Notes: generated from the sequence alone by a model not told the origin. A DNA stretch of 64,000 nucleotides from an uncultured Pseudomonadota bacterium (GCA_949295085.1 CASFJS010000001.1:9121-73120), one strand, 5' to 3'. Positions 5,580 to 57,761 are shown, numbered from the stretch's first letter. Translations and numbers: made by a program.

Positions 5580-6239
5580 ATGTATCCGACGGACAAATTT
5601 TATAATATGCAGGTTAATCTGGTCAAAAACGGCCGGGTCTATCCTGAAAAAGCCGCCATTCGCAACATTTGGCAAAAAGACCGTAACTTTTTTCTTGATA
5701 TCTATATTTATCGTTTGCAAAAGGCTTTTGTCTTTGATGCCGCCTTTGTTCGTGACATATCGGATATGAGCCGCGGCATAAGCTATAAGGACATCAACAA
5801 ATTTGCTGCCGATTTTGCCGCTGCGGCAGCTGTCGAGCCGGTGCAGGTGTCAAAAACGGGAACCGCAGATATTTTATCGCCGGTTAAAGATGATGTTATA
5901 CTGCTCCTGTTTATGTCCAAAGTTTGGAACGATAAAAACCCGATTAAGCAAAAGATTATTTTTGACTATATTCAAAGCAGCGTCGCCGCGGCCAAAAATC
6001 TGAGCGAGCGCTATTTGAGCCGGTATCTGGCCGGACTGCAACCGGCGGATGATGATTTTTACAACACCTTGAACCGTCTTAAGTCAAAAAAGCCGTCCCA
6101 AGCTCTGCGCCTGTTGCAGGAGGCGGTCAAAATTTGTCTTGTCGGCGGCTATCTGCATTACAACGAACGTATGTATCTGGCTGATTTTATCCAGGCCTTG
6201 CGCCAAGAGGGCGTGGAGGTTCCGCCCGATGTTATCTGA
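5580..6239 (+). CDS. hypothetical protein (219 aa)
   Basis: ATG preceded by GGAGG about 9 nt upstream. I recognise no catalytic motif, TM segment or signal peptide. Confidence 0.55.
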   Translation: MYPTDKFYNMQVNLVKNGRVYPEKAAIRNIWQKDRNFFLDIYIYRLQKAFVFDAAFVRDISDMSRGISYKDINKFAADFAAAAAVEPVQVSKTGTADILSPVKDDVILLLFMSKVWNDKNPIKQKIIFDYIQSSVAAAKNLSERYLSRYLAGLQPADDDFYNTLNRLKSKKPSQALRLLQEAVKICLVGGYLHYNERMYLADFIQALRQEGVEVPPDVI

Positions 6240-6299
6240 TTAAAAAAAAAGACGCTTCCTTTACCGGAGGTAAAAAAAAGCATCTTTTCAAAGTGTTCT

Positions 6300-6773
6300 T
6301 CAACCGTTAGACAGCATATCCTGCGTTATCAAGAGCCGATCCAGCTTTTTCATAAGCGCGGTATGGACACGTTCGGCGTCTCTCGGGTGCTTAAAAAGGT
6401 GGAGGGCGATAACATCGCAAAGCAAAACATTTTCATGTTCAAGTTGCGACAGCTGCCGTCGGAGACTTCGGCGATCTCTGAAAGAAAGTTCGGCGCGCAG
6501 GTAGTCCTGACAGTGGCGGATTCCGTCCAGCACAAACTTTATTTTTTTGTGAACTTGGAGGATATTTTCGTTTGCCGCAGCCGAGGCATTATCCCACAAA
6601 TTTTGTACGGCGAAGATAACGTTGTTTTTGTCAACGTGCGAAAAAACGGTTTCAAACAACAGACAGTCGTTGTTTTCCAGGGCGTTGATTATGACGTCGA
6701 CAAGCGACTTACGGCGTTTAACATAATCTGTTAAGGCCGTAATTTTAATTCTGATTTTTTCTATAGCGGTCAT
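6300..6773 (-). CDS. hypothetical helical protein (158 aa), cassette 3 of the tandem array
   Basis: The track ORF starts at TTG 6857. The first ATG (6773, MTAIEKIRIK...) lies 16 nt downstream of the conserved UTR 10-mer, matching the layout of the two neighbouring cassettes. No family recognised. Confidence 0.5.
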   Translation of the reverse strand: MTAIEKIRIKITALTDYVKRRKSLVDVIINALENNDCLLFETVFSHVDKNNVIFAVQNLWDNASAAANENILQVHKKIKFVLDGIRHCQDYLRAELSFRDRRSLRRQLSQLEHENVLLCDVIALHLFKHPRDAERVHTALMKKLDRLLITQDMLSNG

Positions 6774-6789
6774 AATAATTATTTTTAAT

Positions 6790-6854
6790 GTTAATAATTC
6801 TGTATATTGTAAATGTTGTAGTTTGAGAATATAGGCTTTTTTTTCGTCGGTCAA
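6790..6854 (-). promoter_or_regulatory. putative sigma70-type promoter plus conserved 5' UTR element (cassette 3)
   Basis: Minus strand: TTGACC (6854-6849), 18-nt spacer, TATTCT (6830-6825). The invariant AATTATTAAC (plus strand gttaataatt, 6790-6799) sits 16 nt before ATG 6773. Confidence 0.4.
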
Positions 6855-6901
6855 CAAAAAAATGACGTCGCCGTAAGCACTTACATCTCAGAAACAAGCG
6901 C

Positions 6902-6941
6902 AAAAAAGCCCGCGGAGAACCTTAAAAAGTTCCCGGCAGGC
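6902..6941 (-). terminator. rho-independent terminator after cassette 2
   Basis: Plus strand aaaaaa-gcccgcggagaac-cttaaaaa-gttcccggcaggc. On the minus strand this is an imperfect ~13-bp GC-rich hairpin followed by a T6 run. Confidence 0.6.
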
Positions 6942-6964
6942 TAAATTTCTGCTTCCTGACCACA

Positions 6965-7315
6965 CTACATAACATTGTAGTGTTGTGGTGTATTAAGGCT
7001 GAATTCCTCAAATGCCTTATAATGTCTTTCGGCATCGGAATAGGTCAGCAGTTGGAACAAAACCGTCAGTCCCTCCGATAACCCGAGTTCTTTCTTGTTC
7101 TCGAAGCTTATGCCGTTTAGCTTGTTGTTAAGCATCTGATTCCAGGCTATAAGACGGTTCTCGTGGCTTGAAATTTTCAAGGCCGTACGGATAAATTCCT
7201 TAAGATAGGGCACTTGCTCTGGTAATAAGGCATCACCTGTTAATTCGGGCGCTTCCGTCGGGCGGATGGCTTTGATCTGTTCGGCTTTAAAAAGCCTTTT
7301 TCTTGTCAGTTTCAT
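6965..7315 (-). CDS. hypothetical small protein (116 aa), cassette 2, paralog of 7485..7880
   Basis: ATG start. Shares the AIRP..PEL, PYLKEFI, AW..MLNNK, L.E..T.LF..L.Y and HY.A..E.S blocks with the neighbouring ORF. Confidence 0.65.
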   Translation of the reverse strand: MKLTRKRLFKAEQIKAIRPTEAPELTGDALLPEQVPYLKEFIRTALKISSHENRLIAWNQMLNNKLNGISFENKKELGLSEGLTVLFQLLTYSDAERHYKAFEEFSLNTPQHYNVM

Positions 7316-7332
7316 ACTTTTTATTTTTGGGG

Positions 7333-7396
7333 GTTAATAATTTCTATGTTATAGTGAAAACGACTCCAGAATATAATCTTTTGTCCATTTGGTCAA
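7333..7396 (-). promoter_or_regulatory. putative promoter plus conserved 5' UTR element (cassette 2)
   Basis: Minus strand: TTGACC (7396-7391), 17-nt spacer, TATTCT (7373-7368). AATTATTAAC (plus strand 7333-7342) sits 17 nt before ATG 7315. Confidence 0.4.
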
Positions 7397-7435
7397 CAAA
7401 AAATATTTGGTATTTTTTTTACCAAAAACGAGCAC

Positions 7436-7473
7436 AAAAAAGCCCGCGGGGAACTTTAATGTTCCCGGCGGAC
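7436..7473 (-). terminator. rho-independent terminator after cassette 1
   Basis: Plus strand aaaaaa-gcccgcggggaac-tttaat-gttcccggcgg. It is a near copy of the 6902-6941 hairpin and has a T6 run on the minus strand. Confidence 0.6.
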
Positions 7474-7484
7474 CGAAATTTCAT

Positions 7485-7880
7485 TTAATCAGCGTATTTC
7501 TCCGGCCTTGCGGAGTACTCGGTGTAGGCGCAATAGTGCAATTTTGCGCCGTAGTAGCCGAGCCTGTCGAACAGGAACGTCACGGCCTCACCGAGGTTCA
7601 GCCTTTCGCCCTCAACCCCTCCCCGGAGGTTTGACTTATTGTTAAGCATGGTCGCCCACGCTTTCATCATGTCCTCGTGGCTGTAGCCATGCGCCCGCGC
7701 CGCCAGGATAAATTTCCTCAGGTAAGGAGTTTGCTCGCGCCCGAGGTAAAAACTTCCCTTTGGCAACTCCGGAACCATAAGAGGGCGGATAGCGCGCAGT
7801 TCTGCGGCCGAAAAAAATCCCTTTTCCGAGATGTGGATAGAAGTGCTGCTGTTGATGCTGATGGTGTTTTCTTTTGCCAT
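7485..7880 (-). CDS. hypothetical small protein (131 aa), cassette 1, paralog of 6965..7315
   Basis: ATG with AAGGA upstream. By hand alignment it is about 35-40% identical to the 116-aa neighbour. Confidence 0.65.
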   Translation of the reverse strand: MAKENTISINSSTSIHISEKGFFSAAELRAIRPLMVPELPKGSFYLGREQTPYLRKFILAARAHGYSHEDMMKAWATMLNNKSNLRGGVEGERLNLGEAVTFLFDRLGYYGAKLHYCAYTEYSARPEKYAD

Positions 7881-7900
7881 AATCCTTGTTTTTTTAATTT

Positions 7901-7954
7901 GTTAATAATTTTTATCAATGGCAACAACATATCACATTTTGCCGGGGTGGTCAA
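7901..7954 (-). promoter_or_regulatory. putative promoter plus conserved 5' UTR element (cassette 1)
   Basis: Minus strand: TTGACC (7954-7949), 17-nt spacer, TATGTT (7931-7926). AATTATTAAC (plus strand 7901-7910) sits 20 nt before ATG 7880. Confidence 0.4.
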
Positions 7955-7986
7955 TCATAAAAATGACAAAATTTATTTTTTTTGTC

Positions 7987-8018
7987 AAAAAAAGAGGTCT
8001 CGTTTCGCGAAACCTCTT
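7987..8018 (-). terminator. rho-independent terminator ending the FAS/OmpA operon
   Basis: Minus strand: aagaggtttcgcgaaacgagacctct hairpin followed by TTTTTTT, 22 nt after the stop at 8040. Confidence 0.6.
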
Positions 8019-8039
8019 AAAATCAAAGCAAATCAAAGA

Positions 8040-8678
8040 TTATTGCTGATTAATCAGCACAATTTCCACCCGGCGGTTTTGTTCGCGTCCGGCCGCCGTC
8101 GCGTTAGAGGCAATCGGGTTGGCCGAGCCGTATCCGGTGGCAATAATCCGTCCGGCCGCCACGCCTTGCAGTTTTAAGAAATCGGCAACGGCATTGGCGC
8201 GGCGCTGCGATAACGGATTATTGATGGCGGCAGAGCCCGTATTATCGGTGTAGCCGTTAACCTGAACCAGCGTTTTGTCATATTCTTTCAAAACCTTGGC
8301 AATCGAAACCACAACCGGCTGGAAAGAAGACTTGATATAGGCCTCGTTGGTGTTAAAAGTGATGTTGCCGGGCATAATCAGATAAATCCGGCCGTCAAGT
8401 TCCTTAACCTGCACACCGGTTCCGACCAGCTCCTGCCGCAGCTTGGCAGCCTGATAATCCATATAGCCGCCGGCTGCCGCGCCGCCGGCCGCACCGATAC
8501 CGGCGCCGATAAGCGCGCCTTTTTCACCGCCGGCCAAAGCGCCGATACCCGCGCCCAAAGCCGCGCCGATACCCGTTCCCCAGGCCGTTTTGGCCACTTT
8601 CGTTTCGCCGGTATAAGGATCCGTGGCGCAGGCCGCCAACAGGGTTATCACCATTAAAGAGCCTAGTATTTTTTTCAT
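8040..8678 (-). CDS. OmpA-family lipoprotein with glycine-zipper region
   Basis: Lipobox LLAAC. GxxxG-rich segment (GIGAALGAGIGALAGG...). C-terminal OmpA-like domain with NTGSAAINNPLSQRRANAVADFL and NRRVEIVL. Confidence 0.85.
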   Translation of the reverse strand: MKKILGSLMVITLLAACATDPYTGETKVAKTAWGTGIGAALGAGIGALAGGEKGALIGAGIGAAGGAAAGGYMDYQAAKLRQELVGTGVQVKELDGRIYLIMPGNITFNTNEAYIKSSFQPVVVSIAKVLKEYDKTLVQVNGYTDNTGSAAINNPLSQRRANAVADFLKLQGVAAGRIIATGYGSANPIASNATAAGREQNRRVEIVLINQQ

Positions 8679-49123: not shown

Positions 49124-49200
49124 TGGTCGGGACTATTGGATTCGAACCAACGACATCTTGCTCCCAAAGCAAGCGCTCTACCAGGCTGAGCTAAGTCCCG
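49124..49200 (-). tRNA. tRNA-Pro (anticodon UGG), CCA encoded
   Basis: The reverse complement folds as a cloverleaf: CGGGACT/AGTCCCG acceptor, GCTC/GAGC D-stem, CTTGC-TTTGGGA-GCAAG anticodon arm (TGG), GTTGG-TTCGAAT-CCAAT T-arm, then A-CCA. Confidence 0.95.
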
Positions 49201-53525: not shown

Positions 53526-56500
53526 CTAATTAAGTTTGTTAAGAGCTTTTGCCAAAACATAATACAAACGTCCGAGATCTGCCCCCGAAATAACAGCCAT
53601 CAAAGCTGCCGAATGCTCATTTTTCTTTGATTTATCAACCAAAGCCTCAAACTCGCTCATATATGTATTTACCAATTTGCGCAAATCGTCATTTTTTTCA
53701 AACTCTTTCCGCAATGCCGCAATCTGAGTACTTGTCATATTTTTGGCTATAGCCCGGATGAAGACTTCGGTATCTCCGTTATAAAACTTTTTCCATAAAT
53801 CTTCCTCATCTTTCGGATTAAGCAATCTGCTGATATCAACAGAAACACTTTCCAAGCGGTTAATAATTTTTCCGGCATCTTTAAGAAAAGTATCAACCTT
53901 AATGTCTTTATAGGCTGCTGTTAACCCTTTCATGGCTTTCTCGGCCTTAAGGGCGTTTTCGCTCAAAGTTTTGGTCTGAATATTAACCGTATCGTTAAAG
54001 CGCAGACTTTCTTTGACAATTTCCTGTCCTTGAGTCTCAAAAGCCTTTCCGGCATCAACCAAATTGCTGATACACTTTTCCACCTTATTTGTCGTATCAT
54101 CGGCCAGCGCCGTTAACGCCTGAGATTGCTTAACAAACACCTCGCCGGAAGACAAAATCGTATTTGAAATACGCTCGGCATTGGCCGCAATCTCGTTAAC
54201 GGAAGCCCTGAGCTTGTCGCCGGATTTTTCCAAATGTGTCGCACTGAGCCTGGCCGCATCCTCCATCTCCAGTCCCAGCTTTTTAAGATCTTTACCCAAG
54301 CTGCTTACTTTGTCATAAGCATCATTGGCCCTTTCTGCCAATTGATTTGAGGTATCGCTCAAAACCGTATTAAAGCAATCAACAAGTTTTTTGGTATCAT
54401 CAGAAATTTTAACCATCTTATCGCTTTGTGCCGAGATCAAATGATTAATCTCAACCACGCCGGTTGAAGTCTCAGCCGTCACGGTATTAAATCCGGCAAT
54501 GTATTTTTCATATTCATTAAATACCCCGCCGATATTCTCAACCGAATGAAAAATCGTGGTATCCAAATCTTCGCTGCATTGGCTGAGGCGTAAACTGACC
54601 TGATCAATGTTTTTGACGGAATCTTTTGAGGCCTTATTAATCGCGTCACATGCTTTTAACAAGCGATCACCCAACACGTCAAATTCATAAGAAAGCTTGT
54701 TGGTAGCCTCAAAAATACCATTGGTGTTATCTTTAAATCCCGCATTGATTTCCTGTATTTTTGCCGCCGTTTCAACCGTTGCGTCGGTCAAATATTTATA
54801 TTGTTGTGCCAAAGATGCCTCGCCGAGACGAGCCTGAGTAGCCAGATTATTGACCACCTCGGATATATTGTTTTTCTGACTTTCCAGCATTCCGGCAATA
54901 CTCTCGCCCTGTGAAGCCAGTTTAACTCCGATTGTCTCCATATACTTGGTCTGTTCATTCATCTTTTGCCACAAATTATCATTATCTTTGGCCAAACTCT
55001 GATAAAGATCTTTAAGCCTGGTCGAACTGCCGCTGATTTGTTGTACCATATCGCCGACATTATCTTTCATCATGGCCACGGTCGTATTAAAACCGGCCAA
55101 ATGCTCATCGATTGTGGTATTAACGCTTCCGAGTTTATTAATTGCCTCATCAACGACTTTTTCGGTCTGTTGGTGTTTGTTTGTCAGCATCTTTTCAATA
55201 TCGGCCAATTCTTGAATTGATTTTTGAGAATTTGCCACAACCGTTTCGGCGCGGCGACCGGTATCTTCTTCCAAAATAACTAATCTGGCAAACAATTTAT
55301 CGGCACTTTCTTCAATACCTGACATTTGTTTTTTCAAAATATCGGCCATTTTATTTGTATTTTCCGAAATTTTATCACAATAGGCATAAAAATCGGCCTC
55401 CTGCTGCCGGAACAAAATATTAAGATTTGCTGTTTTTTCATCCAAGCCCGAAGCCACTTCACTGATATATTTGGCCGCAGATTGTGAAATATCGCTGATA
55501 TTGATACTCTTAGCTTCAAAATCGCTGATTGATTTATTCAATATGGTTTCAGAGTTGGCCGTTGTTTCGTTGAGTTTTTGCGTCTGTTCCACCAGTGTTT
55601 TATTAATTTGTTCACTGACGCTGCCGATATGCGTCGCCAAAGCCTCCATATTTTGCGCCTGTTTGGTCAAAATATCTTCAAATTGTGTAACTTTTGCCAA
55701 AGTCTTATTGGCCGAGGTATCAAACACGCCGGCCTGCTCGGCCAAATTACTGTTAATGCTCTGGCTTTTGGCAATGGCATCATTACATTGCCCCAGCATT
55801 TTAGCGATATTTGATTTCAACAGCTCCAGAGTATTAACCGCATCTCTTTCCAGACTCCCCGACGCTGTTGACAATTCGTCTATCTGTCGTTTCAGCTCGT
55901 TTTTAATTTCTTCAACCCTTGCGGCCGTATCGGTAATATGTTTCTGCTGCTGAGCCAGCGATGCTTCGCTGATTTGACTCTGTGTTACCACAATGGATGA
56001 TGCCTCTGTCAGATTATTGGTGTATTTTTGCATCAACCCGCTAATCTGATTCATGCTTTCAACCGATTGGGCCGTCTGCACCATCAGGTTTTCCGTTGCG
56101 GTATTAATCCCCTTTCCGACTTCCTGCAACTGATTCATCCCGGCGGCAACGGATTTCTGCAAATTATCATAACGTTTATGAATAACATCGGTTAAATCAA
56201 CAATTTTATTAACACCGTCATGACTGATACGCTCAAAATCGGAAGTCTTTTCCTGCAACGTTCCGACATAAGACAGAATATCGCTGTTGGCAGCCAAAAC
56301 TTTTTCGTCCAGAGACGCAATATTGGCATTCAACGCCGTTTCAACTTCTTGCATGGAAGCAACCACCTTATCCGAAACACCGTTTAAATTTGAAACCTGC
56401 AAGGCCACGGCATCTTCCAGATTAGAGCTCCGCACCATGAGCCGGTCCAGCTCTTGGGCAATCATCTCGCCATGCGCCGTAAACTTTTTACTGACGCCGT

Positions 56501-57704
56501 CCGTTTTTTCTTCCAACACTTTCACTAAAGAAACAATATCTTTATTACGTTTGGCCAACGCCTCATTCACTTTTTGAATCTGCAAATCAATCGTGTCATC
56601 AATATTGTTCATGCTGTTTTTGAGGTTGTTGTTGATAATACCGATATTGGCCACGGCCGATTTGGTAATTTCCTCCGTCTTGTCTTTAGCTTCTTTGGCA
56701 GCAGCTTCCAACACCTGATAAAGCTGTTGATTATGTTTTTGCAACGCATCGTCAAGACTGGTTATTTCTTTGCTTGTCGTCTCTTTCAAATTTTCACACT
56801 TATTAACCGCCGCATCGGCAGCTTGCCGGAGTTGTGATGTCTGAGCCGTAAGCATATTATGCACGGCATTAAACGTCACATTGGCTCGTTCGACAAAGTT
56901 TTTTAAATTTTCCCCGGTCTTTGCGGCATCTTCGGCCGAACCGGACAATATGGTTTTAAAATCTTCGGATGTCTGCTTAATTTCCCGCAGCGACGGCAAC
57001 AATCTTTCAAATACATCTTTGAGCGAATTTTCCAAATTGTTACCGCCGGAAATAAATTCCTGATTGATTTTGGCAAAATTTTGCGTTGAATCTTGAGCCT
57101 TGTTCAACAAATTTTCAAAATTAGCCATCAAAAATTTAACCCCCTCGCTCAATTCGACAATAGTCTTTGACGAGTAATTATCCAAAGTCCCTATCAACTT
57201 GGCAAACTCATCAATGTTTCCTTTAATGGAATCCTTAATTTTTGATGTTTGCTCATGTGCCAGCTTGGAAACCTGCTGCAGCTCCACAACTTGCGAACGA
57301 ATGGCATCTGCCATGGCTTTAGCCGTCTGCGGGGCACCCTCCTCCGGGTAAACAAGCTGATTCATATAAGCGCGCAAAAACTTCGCTTCATGCTTAAACG
57401 ACGTTCCCCTGTCAATATAAGCCATCACCACCCAGATAATAGCCAGAGGCAAGGTCACACCGGCCAAAAAGCCGCCAAACTCATCCGGCATCATCAAAAA
57501 TAAATTTGACCATCCGAAAAACTGCGTAATATAGATTAACACAATGGCAAACCATACCACGCTGACACTAATCATCAGCTTATGCAGATTGTTATTCAAC
57601 CATGATTCCGGTTCTTCAATCTCCGCCGGAGGTGTATTTTCTTTCATAAATTGCGGCAAAACCGTAACATTACCGTCGGTCGTCTTGGCAGCTCTCTCGG
57701 ACAT
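53526..57704 (-). CDS. giant membrane-anchored alpha-helical/coiled-coil protein (1,392 aa from ATG 57704)
   Basis: The track ORF starts at TTG 57737, and I trimmed it to MSERAAKTTDG. Numbering below follows the 1403-aa track ORF. Two or three TM helices lie at aa ~55-108. About 1,150 aa of heptad-like, Q/N/E/K/S/T-rich sequence follows, with internally duplicated motifs. The globular-looking C-terminal ~110 aa includes DLWKKFYNGDTEVF... Confidence 0.8.
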   Translation of the reverse strand: MSERAAKTTDGNVTVLPQFMKENTPPAEIEEPESWLNNNLHKLMISVSVVWFAIVLIYITQFFGWSNLFLMMPDEFGGFLAGVTLPLAIIWVVMAYIDRGTSFKHEAKFLRAYMNQLVYPEEGAPQTAKAMADAIRSQVVELQQVSKLAHEQTSKIKDSIKGNIDEFAKLIGTLDNYSSKTIVELSEGVKFLMANFENLLNKAQDSTQNFAKINQEFISGGNNLENSLKDVFERLLPSLREIKQTSEDFKTILSGSAEDAAKTGENLKNFVERANVTFNAVHNMLTAQTSQLRQAADAAVNKCENLKETTSKEITSLDDALQKHNQQLYQVLEAAAKEAKDKTEEITKSAVANIGIINNNLKNSMNNIDDTIDLQIQKVNEALAKRNKDIVSLVKVLEEKTDGVSKKFTAHGEMIAQELDRLMVRSSNLEDAVALQVSNLNGVSDKVVASMQEVETALNANIASLDEKVLAANSDILSYVGTLQEKTSDFERISHDGVNKIVDLTDVIHKRYDNLQKSVAAGMNQLQEVGKGINTATENLMVQTAQSVESMNQISGLMQKYTNNLTEASSIVVTQSQISEASLAQQQKHITDTAARVEEIKNELKRQIDELSTASGSLERDAVNTLELLKSNIAKMLGQCNDAIAKSQSINSNLAEQAGVFDTSANKTLAKVTQFEDILTKQAQNMEALATHIGSVSEQINKTLVEQTQKLNETTANSETILNKSISDFEAKSINISDISQSAAKYISEVASGLDEKTANLNILFRQQEADFYAYCDKISENTNKMADILKKQMSGIEESADKLFARLVILEEDTGRRAETVVANSQKSIQELADIEKMLTNKHQQTEKVVDEAINKLGSVNTTIDEHLAGFNTTVAMMKDNVGDMVQQISGSSTRLKDLYQSLAKDNDNLWQKMNEQTKYMETIGVKLASQGESIAGMLESQKNNISEVVNNLATQARLGEASLAQQYKYLTDATVETAAKIQEINAGFKDNTNGIFEATNKLSYEFDVLGDRLLKACDAINKASKDSVKNIDQVSLRLSQCSEDLDTTIFHSVENIGGVFNEYEKYIAGFNTVTAETSTGVVEINHLISAQSDKMVKISDDTKKLVDCFNTVLSDTSNQLAERANDAYDKVSSLGKDLKKLGLEMEDAARLSATHLEKSGDKLRASVNEIAANAERISNTILSSGEVFVKQSQALTALADDTTNKVEKCISNLVDAGKAFETQGQEIVKESLRFNDTVNIQTKTLSENALKAEKAMKGLTAAYKDIKVDTFLKDAGKIINRLESVSVDISRLLNPKDEEDLWKKFYNGDTEVFIRAIAKNMTSTQIAALRKEFEKNDDLRKLVNTYMSEFEALVDKSKKNEHSAALMAVISGADLGRLYYVLAKALNKLN

Positions 57705-57761
57705 CCGATATATTCCCCATACAAATAAATTCCCCAAAGCCCACCATCAGGCTCCGGGGTT

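What the first reader, a model, noticed from the sequence alone, without database searches (positions are those of the whole stretch)
6240..8020. Three tandem small-ORF cassettes whose non-coding scaffold is better conserved than their proteins
Three consecutive small genes lie on the minus strand: 7880->7485 (131 aa), 7315->6965 (116 aa) and 6773->6300 (158 aa). Each carries its own copy of one scaffold. The scaffold starts with a T-rich tract and TTGACC (plus strand ggtcaa at 7949, 7391 and 6849). A 17-18 nt spacer leads to TATGTT, TATTCT and TATTCT respectively. The 5' UTR holds the invariant 10-mer AATTATTAAC 16-20 nt before the ATG. For the first two genes, near-identical hairpin terminators follow (gcccgcggRgaac...gttcccggcRg plus a T run). 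The unit length is about 545 bp. The 131- and 116-aa products are clear paralogs at about 35-40% identity by hand alignment (blocks AIRP..PEL, PYL+.FI, AW..MLNNK, LF..L.Y, HY.A..E.S). The 158-aa product shares only a C-terminal LF..L....DAER.H.A-like stretch. Regulatory DNA is therefore conserved while the coding DNA has diverged strongly. Neutral decay of a duplication would give the opposite pattern. This suggests diversifying selection on a co-regulated small-protein family. I see no signal peptide or TM segment, and I recognise no family. The array sits in an AT-rich gap between mfd and the FAS operon, with another orphan gene (5580..6239) beside it.
Basis: seen in the sequence. Interest (0 to 1): 0.7.

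Follow-up and report, generated by a model that had tools for sequence, protein, structure and literature searches.

The report
Orphan split-protein gene cassettes beside mfd
Three small genes next to mfd in an uncultured gut alphaproteobacterium encode the separated halves (one half in two copies) of an undescribed, fast-diverging helical protein, and each gene has its own promoter and terminator that are better conserved than the coding sequence; the function is unknown.

Summary
Three minus-strand genes, A (131 aa), B (116 aa) and C (157 aa), each carry a TTGACC-17-TATxxT promoter, an unstructured AT-rich leader with AATTATTAAC 16-20 nt before the ATG, and a strong terminator.

C is not a diverged paralog. 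It is a separate domain (N) that sits N-terminal to the A/B-type domain (AB) in single 235-280-aa proteins of relatives, so the array encodes a split two-domain protein with AB duplicated.

An exhaustive search of 1.84 billion representatives found 34 family members. None matches Pfam, NCBIfam, PHROGs, PADLOC or PDB. A confident AlphaFold model (pLDDT 93) has no Foldseek neighbour.

The module always lies beside a TerB-like gene and mfd in a few species of uncultured gut Alphaproteobacteria. It varies between species (split, fused, duplicated, absent).

Against the closest species, neighbouring genes are 85-96% identical in protein, but AB is 46% and N is 52%. The head promoter is 92% identical and A's terminator 46/47 nt, both far above the neutral expectation.

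dN/dS is below 1 wherever it is measurable (0-0.27). Rapid evolution and conserved expression signals are therefore shown, but positive selection is not. A conflict or specificity role is only inferred.

The parts
7992..8018 (-). Intrinsic terminator of the upstream OmpA-family lipoprotein gene; left border of the array
   Evidence: 11-bp stem plus T-run; -15.1 kcal/mol, z = -4.6
7964..7987 (.). Palindrome TGACAAAA-N8-TTTTGTCA in an A/T tract just upstream of the -35 of cassette A (UP-element-like or operator-like)
   Evidence: Unique in the 64-kb window with 0 expected. One copy per locus in six species-level loci, always at the head promoter.
7926..7954 (-). Promoter of cassette A: TTGACC, 17 nt, TG-n-TATGTT (extended -10)
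   Evidence: 28/29 identical in L009. The hexamers are kept in strains whose spacer has 8 changes.
7901..7910 (-). Leader motif AATTATTAAC of cassette A, 20 nt before the ATG
   Evidence: The leader is predicted to be unstructured.
7485..7880 (-). Gene A, 131 aa, AB-domain protein. It has a strain-variable N-terminal tail.
   Evidence: AB profile hit at E = 3e-32; 34-member family; strain comparison
7435..7474 (-). Intrinsic terminator of A (13-bp stem, U-run)
   Evidence: -23.0 kcal/mol, z = -3.6; 46/47 nt identical in L009
7368..7396 (-). Promoter of cassette B: TTGACC, 17 nt, TATTCT
7333..7342 (-). Leader motif AATTATTAAC of cassette B, 17 nt before the ATG. No Shine-Dalgarno sequence.
   Evidence: The same ATTATTAAC-CCCC-AAA leader is seen in the distant L089 and L093 AB genes.
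6965..7315 (-). Gene B, 116 aa, second AB-domain protein. The whole cassette (about 7440-6900) is missing in the closest species L009.
   Evidence: AB profile hit at E = 9e-32; indel seen
6901..6942 (-). Intrinsic terminator of B, homologous to A's terminator
   Evidence: -21.6 kcal/mol; 83% identical to A's terminator
6826..6854 (-). Promoter of cassette C: TTGACC, 17 nt, TATTCT
   Evidence: 78% identical to B's promoter core over 36 nt (D4).
6790..6799 (-). Leader motif AATTATTAAC of cassette C, 16 nt before the ATG. No Shine-Dalgarno sequence.
6300..6773 (-). Gene C, 157 aa, N-domain protein. It is homologous to the N-terminal half of the fused N::AB proteins of relatives.
   Evidence: BLASTP against P0039 residues 1-155: 32% identity, E = 3e-21. 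N profile hit at E = 5e-55.
6246..6289 (.). Bidirectional terminator shared by C and the convergent TerB-like gene
   Evidence: -19.5 kcal/mol, z = -4.3
5580..6239 (+). TerB-like gene (p219) downstream of mfd. It is the constant right-hand neighbour of the module, not one of the cassettes.
   Evidence: 13 of 14 orthologs match Pfam TerB, best E = 3.4e-6. Present next to mfd with or without the array.

Best explanation
SHOWN.
- A, B and C are three self-contained transcription units that encode the separated parts of one lineage-restricted protein.
- C is the N-domain (about 155 aa, helical). A and B are two old, diverged copies of the AB-domain (about 105 aa, helical).
- In related species the two domains form a single N::AB polypeptide. 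That polypeptide is predicted with high confidence to fold as one two-domain body.
- The module sits beside a TerB-like gene and mfd in a small clade of uncultured gut Alphaproteobacteria.
- Between species it is rebuilt: split, fused, duplicated, accompanied by two more orphan families, or absent.
- Its proteins change about 10-20 times faster at non-synonymous sites than the neighbouring genes, yet remain under purifying selection.
- The head promoter module and A's terminator are held far more tightly than neutral sites.

INFERRED.
- C binds A and/or B in the cytoplasm.
- The units are built for strong, coordinated expression: a near-consensus -35, an extended -10, an UP-like A/T palindrome, unstructured leaders that in B and C lack a Shine-Dalgarno sequence and all carry a fixed motif, the MAK start of A (which most relatives share), and strong terminators.
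- The B cassette was gained or lost by unequal recombination between the repeated terminator and promoter copies.
- The scaffold-versus-coding contrast arises because expression signals are constrained while a loosely constrained helical protein diverges. Occasional import of diverged alleles may add to this.

FUNCTIONAL GUESS (about 0.3 on its own). This is a species-specific binding or specificity module of the conflict type (defence, immunity or addiction-like), not a housekeeping enzyme.
For: Split versus fused:
- The A+B profile finds 34 proteins. Ten are 235-276 aa and carry the AB domain at the C-terminus.
- C aligns end to end with their N-terminal half (32% identity, E = 3e-21).
- B aligns with their C-terminal half (E = 2e-11).

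Structure:
- The natural fusion P0039 models at pLDDT 93.2 and pTM 0.77.
- An artificial C+B fusion keeps both domain folds (pLDDT 86.9).

Synteny and variability:
- Architectures in about 12 species-level loci are tabulated.
- The module stays with p219 and mfd even when the left flank differs (L089; L099).

Evolutionary rates:
- Against L009, the neighbours have dN 0.02-0.09, AB 0.52, N 0.41 and p219 0.17.
- In L092 versus L099, dN/dS is 0.15 for AB and 0.02 for mfd.
- Within the species the array proteins are 95-100% identical, with pN/pS of 0-0.27.

Scaffold constraint:
- The head promoter module is 110/119 identical (P = 2e-12 against the neutral rate), and A's terminator is 46/47 (P = 4e-8). 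Other intergenic regions look neutral.
- In strains, the promoter spacer is rewritten at 8 positions while the -35, the extended -10 and the leader motif are kept.
- In the second species pair, the 150 nt upstream of AB are 87% identical against 77% for the coding DNA.

B cassette:
- It is a 535-nt terminator-to-terminator indel relative to L009.

Expression signals:
-.
Against: - No expression data exist. Transcription start sites, protein abundance and co-regulation are inferred from sequence alone.
- The C-B interaction is not demonstrated. The artificial C+B fusion gives only pTM 0.56.
- AB occurs without any N gene in L092 and L093.
- C's own promoter and leader are only 66% identical to L009's, which is the neutral level. 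The strong constraint is therefore specific to the head promoter and A's terminator.
- Nothing links the proteins to any conflict system. No PADLOC, Pfam or PHROG signal appears, even across all 34 members. There are no phage or plasmid relatives. No toxin, recombinase or mobile-element gene lies within 10 kb.
- The excess silent-site divergence against L009 is not explained by relaxed constraint alone.
Confidence: 0.6

Rival explanations
1. Cassette exchange. The conserved promoter, leader and terminator serve as homology arms. The coding interiors are replaced by recombination with anciently diverged alleles, as at polymorphic specificity loci. The scaffold looks young and the coding DNA old.
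For: - Against L009, identity is mosaic: 92% in the promoter, about 53% in A's interior and 98% in the terminator.
- Four-fold degenerate sites at conserved codons differ at 30/48 in AB+N against 663/1886 in ten neighbouring genes (P = 1e-4).
- Observed dN (0.4-0.5) is 2-3 times what the within-species pN/pS and the background dS predict.
- A 100-nt imported patch in the adjacent ompA-like gene shows that recombination with diverged donors happens here.
Against: - The second species pair (L092/L099) shows no silent-site excess in AB (0.38 against 0.51 in mfd).
- Five strains of the window's species all carry the same alleles.
- The conserved first 5 and last 8 codons are also conserved as protein motifs (MAK......RPE[KR]Y.D) in other family members, so they need not be breakpoints.
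- The numbers of silent sites are small (19-54 per gene).
Confidence: 0.3
2. One reading: positive, diversifying selection on a co-regulated family of three paralogous small proteins.
For: - The proteins diverge 10-20 times faster than their neighbours while the regulatory DNA is kept.
- Copy number varies between species.
- A's N-terminal tail differs between strains by substitutions and indels.
Against: - C is not a paralog.
- Every measurable dN/dS or pN/pS is 0-0.27.
- The A-B comparison is saturated (pS 0.74) and uninformative.
- No site-level test was possible.
Confidence: 0.2
3. Orphan immunity genes against interbacterial toxins: an array of small, helical, fast-evolving cytoplasmic proteins with repetitive intergenic DNA, as in the acquired interbacterial defence clusters of gut Bacteroidales.
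For: - The organism lives in the gut.
- The array consists of small soluble proteins with repeated intergenic sequence and lower G+C than the flanks.
- In L013 the same junction holds a gene whose C-terminal module is repeated as displaced fragments, which resembles polymorphic-toxin loci.
- rAID-1 clusters are described as having skewed GC, a XerD-type recombinase and repetitive intergenic sequences (10.1101/471110).
Against: - No recombinase or toxin gene lies within 10 kb.
- No immunity family matches; a single Imm43 hit at E = 0.08 in 1 of 34 members is noise.
- Only one family is present, in 1-3 copies.
- The module is syntenic with mfd across species rather than mobile.
- The two domains are fused in relatives, which is not typical of immunity arrays.
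Confidence: 0.1
4. Toxin-antitoxin or addiction-type pair, with N and AB as toxin and antidote. It is sometimes fused, like the known fused toxin-antitoxin proteins.
For: - There are two small adjacent partner genes that are fast-evolving, patchily present, and split or fused.
- A locus-specific palindrome lies at the head promoter, as at autoregulated antitoxin operators.
Against: - In the window each gene has its own promoter and terminator instead of forming one operon.
- AB occurs alone in L092 and L093.
- No toxin-antitoxin or PADLOC family hit is found.
- Both partners are basic (pI about 9).
- No catalytic motif stands out (my reading of the alignments).
Confidence: 0.08
5. AB is a small DNA-binding autoregulator. 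It would use a helix-turn-helix-like segment (...A..xxGYSxE[ED][IM]..AW...) to bind the locus-specific palindrome.
For: - The palindrome is conserved and unique to the locus.
- The proteins are basic (pI about 9).
- By my own reading of the alignment, the Ala-Gly-hydrophobic spacing resembles the classical helix-turn-helix pattern. This was not scored with any tool.
Against: - No helix-turn-helix family appears in Pfam, even at E up to 1, in any of 34 members.
- Foldseek finds no helix-turn-helix protein.
- B lacks the glycine.
- The palindrome stays constant while AB proteins fall to 30% identity, which is hard to reconcile with a matched operator and reader.
Confidence: 0.08
6. The ORFs are not real genes; they are chance ORFs in AT-rich spacer DNA.
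For: No database annotation and no family hit.
Against: - The ORFs are conserved as proteins in about 12 species with dN/dS well below 1.
- The profile finds 34 clusters.
- The structure models are confident.
Confidence: 0.01

Closest known systems
Recombinase-associated acquired interbacterial defence clusters (rAID-1) of gut Bacteroidales, and integron cassette arrays
   Same: Both are arrays of small genes separated by repeated non-coding sequence, with G+C below that of the flanks, in gut bacteria (rAID-1 as described in 10.1101/471110). A hairpin-forming element closes each unit.
   Different: - No tyrosine recombinase or integrase lies within 10 kb.
- The hairpins are ordinary terminators with a U-run, not attC sites.
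- Every unit has its own promoter.
- Only one protein family (two domains) is present, in 2-3 units.
- The locus is syntenic with mfd rather than mobile.
Polymorphic specificity loci with conserved flanks and hypervariable interiors (Bacillus comQXP, staphylococcal agr; from my own knowledge, not checked here)
   Same: Both show sharp mosaic identity between closely related lineages. Here that is a conserved promoter and terminator around a coding interior near random identity, and two interacting partners that diverge together.
   Different: - There is no homology to any quorum-sensing component.
- No peptide or kinase is present.
- No evidence yet of several alleles segregating within one species.
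Type II and fused toxin-antitoxin modules
   Same: Both comprise two small adjacent partner proteins that are patchy and fast-evolving, occasionally fused, with a palindrome at the promoter.
   Different: - The units here are monocistronic, each with its own terminator.
- AB can occur alone.
- There are no family hits.
- No toxicity data exist.
E. coli long direct repeats (ldr/rdl) and similar tandem type I toxin units (reviewed in PMC2887945; found, abstract only)
   Same: Both are tandem repeats of about 0.5 kb, each an autonomous transcription unit with conserved regulatory DNA.
   Different: - The products here are folded soluble proteins of 116-157 aa, not hydrophobic peptides of 50 aa or fewer.
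- No antisense RNA signal is found (Rfam negative).
Rosetta-stone (split versus fused) gene pairs in general
   Same: Separate genes in one genome correspond to one fused polypeptide in another, which predicts physical interaction.
   Different: The gene order in the split form (AB then N) is the reverse of the domain order in the fusion (N then AB). Simple read-through fusion or fission does not explain it. L011 (AB followed by N::AB) suggests a route through loss of the fused AB part.

Membership tests
Any curated protein family (Pfam, NCBIfam, PHROGs, PADLOC) | Profile match at or near the curated threshold | tested here: not met
   - A and B have no hit at E up to 1 in Pfam, NCBIfam or PADLOC. 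A also has none in PHROGs, and B has only two noise-level PHROG hits (E 0.058 and 0.16).
- C has only noise: NACHT at 0.016 and DUF1722 at 0.055, both far below cut-off.
- Across all 34 family members, no family recurs in more than 2 members.
Any solved or viral predicted structure | Foldseek or sequence-profile match | tested here: not met
   - Best Foldseek E-values are 0.93 (PDB) and 0.98 (BFVD) for the pLDDT-93 model, and 2.0 for the window's own C+B model.
- PDB profile searches give nothing below E = 0.03.
- AlphaFold DB was not available.
Integron / rAID-1-type cassette array | Adjacent tyrosine recombinase (IntI or XerD-like) | tested here: not met
   The genes within 10 kb on both sides are FAS genes, a Fer4/Pyr_redox protein, OmpA, mfd, recG and a glycosyltransferase. 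None is a recombinase.
Integron / rAID-1-type cassette array | attC-like recombination site at each cassette end | tested here: not met
   The 3' hairpins are 13-bp G+C-rich stems followed by U-runs, which is the form of intrinsic terminators. By inspection they read GGGAAC...GTTCCC, not RYYYAAC...GTTRRRY.
Integron / rAID-1-type cassette array | Unrelated cargo genes in successive cassettes | tested here: not met
   All cassettes encode the AB or N domain of one protein family.
Type II toxin-antitoxin module | Two genes co-transcribed as one operon | tested here: not met
   In the window each gene has its own promoter-like site and terminator. This is predicted from sequence, not from transcripts.
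Type II toxin-antitoxin module | Homology to a known toxin or antitoxin family | tested here: not met
Type II toxin-antitoxin module | One partner is toxic and the other neutralises it | not testable with these tools
   This needs expression experiments.
Polymorphic toxin immunity proteins | Linkage to a toxin gene, or homology to an Imm family | tested here: not met
   No toxin domain lies in the neighbourhood. There is one Imm43 hit at E = 0.08 in 1 of 34 members. The toxin-like repeats in L013 are on the other strand and have no family assignment.
Polymorphic specificity locus (comQXP/agr type) | Several deeply diverged alleles segregating within one species, between conserved flanks | tested here: inconclusive
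   - Between sister species the pattern is present.
- Within the species, five assemblies carry one allele set.
- The sample is too small to decide.
TerB family (for the neighbour at 5580-6239 only) | Match to Pfam PF05099 | tested here: inconclusive
   13 of 14 orthologs match at E up to 1, with a best E of 3.4e-6. The window's own copy does not reach E = 1 in the table shown, and no score against the gathering cut-off was obtained.

The most novel reading that the evidence does not exclude
N and AB form a previously unknown two-part conflict or specificity system of gut Alphaproteobacteria. Its coding interiors are swapped between lineages by homologous recombination through the conserved promoter, leader and terminator 'handles'. 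This would be a recombinase-independent gene-cassette system in which regulatory DNA doubles as the exchange site. The locus-specific palindrome would act as its dedicated control element.
Probability: 0.12. Interest if true: 0.8.

Novelty: categorically new. Interest (0 to 1): 0.5.

Why it matters
If the reading is right, this is an undescribed protein family with a confidently predicted fold that has no solved neighbour. It is confined to a poorly known group of animal-gut Alphaproteobacteria.

The split, fused and duplicated forms give a ready-made prediction of a protein-protein interaction.

The locus is also a clean natural case in which promoters and terminators are held more tightly than the proteins they express. 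The head promoter is 92% identical and A's terminator 98%, against 53% in the coding interior, between species whose other genes are 85-96% identical in protein. That makes it a useful test bed for two questions. How do expression signals and coding sequence evolve independently? Can conserved regulatory DNA serve as recombination handles?

'New' here means an undescribed family and locus organisation. Orphan families are common in uncultured lineages, and the function is unknown, so the practical importance is uncertain.

Tried and rejected
Family and structure searches that found nothing:
- Pfam, NCBIfam, PHROGs and PADLOC on the window proteins.
- Pfam, PADLOC and PHROGs on all 34 family members.
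- PDB sequence profiles.
- Foldseek against PDB twice and BFVD once.
- Rfam on the region. The only hit was 24 bits against a 60-bit threshold, on the ompA terminator.

Wider sequence searches:
- The word-indexed protein search found almost nothing beyond the queries. The exhaustive HMMER search was needed.
- A viral-contig scan with the AB alignment gave no relative.
- tblastn of the fused protein against 50,697 phage and 72,556 plasmid records gave no match.
- A metagenome scan with the palindrome-plus-promoter pattern returned two short contigs of species already in hand and one chance hit in G+C-rich DNA.

Ideas considered and rejected:
- The terminator hairpin as a genome-wide repeat: it occurs only at these two places in the window.
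- The fourth AATTATTAAC copy at 53859 as a fourth cassette: it lies inside a long coding region.
- dN/dS for the A-B pair: synonymous sites are saturated (pS 0.74), so the value of 0.21 means nothing.
- An alternative promoter using TATTAA of the leader motif as the -10: by inspection there is no acceptable -35.
- A CtrA box (TTAA-N7-TTAAC): by inspection only the half-site is present.
- attC sites: rejected by inspection.
- A tRNA or integrase anchor for an island: the only tRNA is 41 kb away.

Limits on structure prediction:
- The artificial C+B fusion did not give a confident inter-domain arrangement (pTM 0.56).


Full report
**1. The observation**

The three minus-strand ORFs exist as described: A 7880->7485 (131 aa), B 7315->6965 (116 aa) and C 6773->6300 (157 aa).

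Promoters. Each ORF is preceded by TTGACC, a 17-nt spacer and TATGTT or TATTCT. That composite pattern occurs 4 times in 64 kb against 0.42 expected, and 3 of the 4 are here.

Leaders. The exact 10-mer AATTATTAAC occurs 4 times in the window. Three copies lie 16-20 nt before these ATGs, and the fourth is inside an unrelated coding region. With one mismatch allowed the 10-mer is not rarer than chance, so its weight comes from position and from recurrence in relatives. The motif keeps its distance to the ATG (16-20 nt) rather than to the -10 (15 or 25-26 nt). The leaders are predicted to be unstructured, and those of B and C lack a Shine-Dalgarno sequence.

Terminators. A and B end in homologous hairpin terminators (83% identical; -23.0 and -21.6 kcal/mol). 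C shares a bidirectional terminator with the convergent neighbour.

Conservation within the window. Upstream regions are 70-76% identical (z = 3.0-6.4). The A/B coding DNA is 49% identical when codon-aligned, and the proteins are 39-41% identical.

Five independent assemblies of the same species show the same array.

**2. What the proteins are**

None of the three matches Pfam, NCBIfam, PHROGs or PADLOC.

An exhaustive HMMER search of 1.84 billion representative proteins with the A+B profile found only 34 proteins. About two thirds are 97-116 aa. Ten are 235-276 aa with the match in their C-terminal 100 residues.

The N-terminal half of those longer proteins aligns end to end with C (32% identity over 156 aa, E = 3e-21). 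B aligns with their C-terminal half (E = 2e-11). So C is not a decayed paralog of A and B. It is a second domain (N), and relatives carry it fused in front of the A/B-type domain (AB).

AlphaFold2 models the natural fusion P0039 as an all-helical two-domain protein (pLDDT 93.2, pTM 0.77). An artificial C+B fusion keeps both folds (pLDDT 86.9) but with a less certain domain arrangement (pTM 0.56).

Foldseek finds nothing in PDB or BFVD (best E 0.9-2.0). PDB sequence profiles find nothing. No weak family hit recurs across the 34 members. There are no relatives in phage or plasmid records or in viral contigs.

The proteins are soluble and basic, with pI about 9.

**3. Where it occurs**

The host is an uncultured animal-gut alphaproteobacterium, according to the record titles of the 80 closest loci.

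I scanned those loci, and loci fetched through family members, with my own profiles. The resulting architectures are:

| Locus | Genes in order | Right flank |
|---|---|---|
| Window and its strains | AB, AB, N | TerB-like, mfd |
| L009 (closest species) | AB, N | TerB-like, mfd |
| L089 | AB, N, X | TerB-like, Y, mfd |
| L010 | N::AB, AB, X | TerB-like, Y, mfd |
| L011 | AB, N::AB | TerB-like, Y, mfd |
| L006 | N::AB, X | TerB-like, Y, mfd |
| L008 | N::AB, X | TerB-like, Y (contig ends) |
| L007 | N::AB, X | contig ends |
| L092 | AB, X (no N) | TerB-like, Y, mfd |
| L093 | AB only | split TerB-like gene, Y, mfd |
| L012, L018, L040, L045 | none | TerB-like, mfd |

X and Y are two further orphan families.

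The module stays next to the TerB-like gene and mfd even where the other flank is not the OmpA-like gene. It belongs with mfd.

**4. How it evolves**

*Window against L009.* Twelve neighbouring genes are 85-96% identical in protein, with dN 0.02-0.09 and dS 0.4-1.25. The TerB-like gene is 74% identical (dN 0.17), N is 52% (dN 0.41) and AB is 46% (dN 0.52).

The nucleotide alignment is a mosaic:

| Segment | Identity to L009 | P against the neutral rate |
|---|---|---|
| ompA terminator, palindrome and A promoter | 110/119 | 2e-12 |
| A's coding interior | 53% | not significant |
| A stop to end of terminator | 46/47 | 4e-8 |
| C's promoter and leader | 66% | not significant |
| Other intergenic regions | 56-68% | not significant |

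The neutral rate is 35% difference at four-fold degenerate sites.

In the closest strains, A's promoter spacer has 8 changes. The -35, the extended -10 and the leader motif are untouched.

*Second species pair (L092 against L099).* The 150 nt upstream of AB are 87% identical against 77% for the coding DNA. dN/dS is 0.15 for AB and 0.02 for mfd.

*Within the window's species.* The array proteins are 95-100% identical, with pN/pS of 0-0.27.

It reflects tightly constrained expression signals around fast-evolving but still constrained proteins. No comparison gives dN/dS near or above 1.

**5. A complication**

Against L009, silent sites in the array are also over-diverged. Four-fold sites at conserved codons differ at 30/48 in AB+N, against 663/1886 in ten neighbouring genes (P = 1e-4).

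Together with the mosaic identity and a clear imported patch in the adjacent ompA-like gene (19-20 differences in 100 nt between otherwise 99%-identical strains), this points to recombination with diverged alleles.

The second species pair shows no such excess, and the five strains share one allele set. I therefore treat cassette exchange as a serious rival or contributor (0.3), not as shown.

**6. The B cassette**

B is missing in L009 as a 535-nt indel that runs from terminator to terminator.

- B's terminator resembles A's.
- Its -35/-10 core resembles C's (78% over 36 nt).
- Its distal A/T tract resembles A's.

This fits unequal recombination between scaffold copies. The direction (gain in the window's lineage or loss in L009) is unresolved.

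In a neighbour-joining tree, B is no closer to A (42%) than to L009's AB (47%). The two copies are therefore old.

**7. The head promoter**

A palindrome, TGACAAAA-N8-TTTTGTCA (7964-7987), lies in an A/T tract just upstream of the -35.

- It is unique in the window, with 0 expected.
- It occurs once per locus in six species-level loci.
- It heads whichever gene comes first or, in L089, the N gene.

It could be an UP element, an operator or both. This is inference.

**8. Function**

Nothing assigns a function.

The design of the units suggests abundant expression: a near-consensus promoter, an unstructured leader, the MAK start of A that most relatives share, and a strong terminator.

The patchy, rearranged, fast-diverging, species-specific pattern at a variable junction suggests a binding or specificity role of the conflict type. 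In L013 the same junction holds what looks like displaced toxin C-terminal modules. I give this guess about 0.3.

- Known cassette systems fail on their defining features. Integrons and rAID-1 (10.1101/471110) require a recombinase, attC sites and diverse cargo, and none is present.
- A toxin-antitoxin reading fails on operon structure and homology.
- A DNA-binding autoregulator is a weak idea that rests only on my reading of a helix-turn-helix-like spacing.

**9. Verdict**

This is an undescribed split/fused two-domain protein family in autonomous, conserved expression cassettes beside mfd. It is real, reproducible across species and unassigned.

Interest is moderate. The evolutionary pattern and the novel fold are unusual. 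However, orphan families in uncultured bacteria are common, and there is no functional lead.

Noticed in passing
window 5580-6239 (+): The 219-aa 'orphan' downstream of mfd is TerB-like: 13 of 14 orthologs match Pfam PF05099, with a best E of 3.4e-6. It follows mfd co-directionally in every related locus, including those without the array. It is itself unusually diverged from L009 (74% protein identity against 85-96% for neighbouring genes).
   Followed up: partly
window 8203-8302 (inside the OmpA-family gene 8040-8678): A 100-nt patch carries 19-20 mostly synonymous differences between strains that are otherwise about 99% identical. It looks like a short recombination import from a diverged donor.
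   Followed up: partly
window 7830-7870 (codons 5-17 of gene A): A's N-terminal tail is absent from other AB proteins. It differs between strains by substitutions and a 12-15-nt indel (ENTISINSSTSIH against ENSNNPPIH or ENSNNTPIH). Some gene callers extend the ORF to 150-151 aa.
   Followed up: partly
L013 11600-14113 (RUG14511, same ompA / TerB-like junction): A 335-aa minus-strand ORF has a C-terminal module of about 95 aa. That module recurs in two truncated ORFs (99 and 63 aa) with repeated intergenic blocks and three copies of one promoter-like sequence. This resembles displaced C-terminal cassettes of polymorphic toxins. No Pfam hit.
   Followed up: partly
L006 11159-11587 and 12454-12972; also L007, L008, L010, L011, L089, L092, L099: Two further orphan families travel with the module in relatives and are missing from the window. 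X (139-163 aa) follows the AB/N genes. Y (164-188 aa) lies between the TerB-like gene and mfd. No Pfam hits.
   Followed up: partly
L093 5538-6178: The TerB-like gene is split into two ORFs (79-97 and 134 aa) in this species. This could be a frameshift, a pseudogene or an assembly error.
   Followed up: no
window 53526-57737 (-) and 49124-49200 (-): A 1,403-aa ORF lies a few kb from the window's only tRNA gene (tRNA-Pro). The one stretch of it that I read looks charged and helical by eye. It might belong to a prophage or a gene-transfer-agent-like region. I did not examine it.
   Followed up: no
L009, L010, L089, L093 leaders: AB-gene leaders in distant species share ATTATTAA[CT], often followed by CCCC and an A-run, 16-36 nt before the ATG. 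Most AB, N and fused proteins start with MAK (ATGGCAAAA). The leader may be an old RNA-level or operator-level signal of this family.
   Followed up: partly
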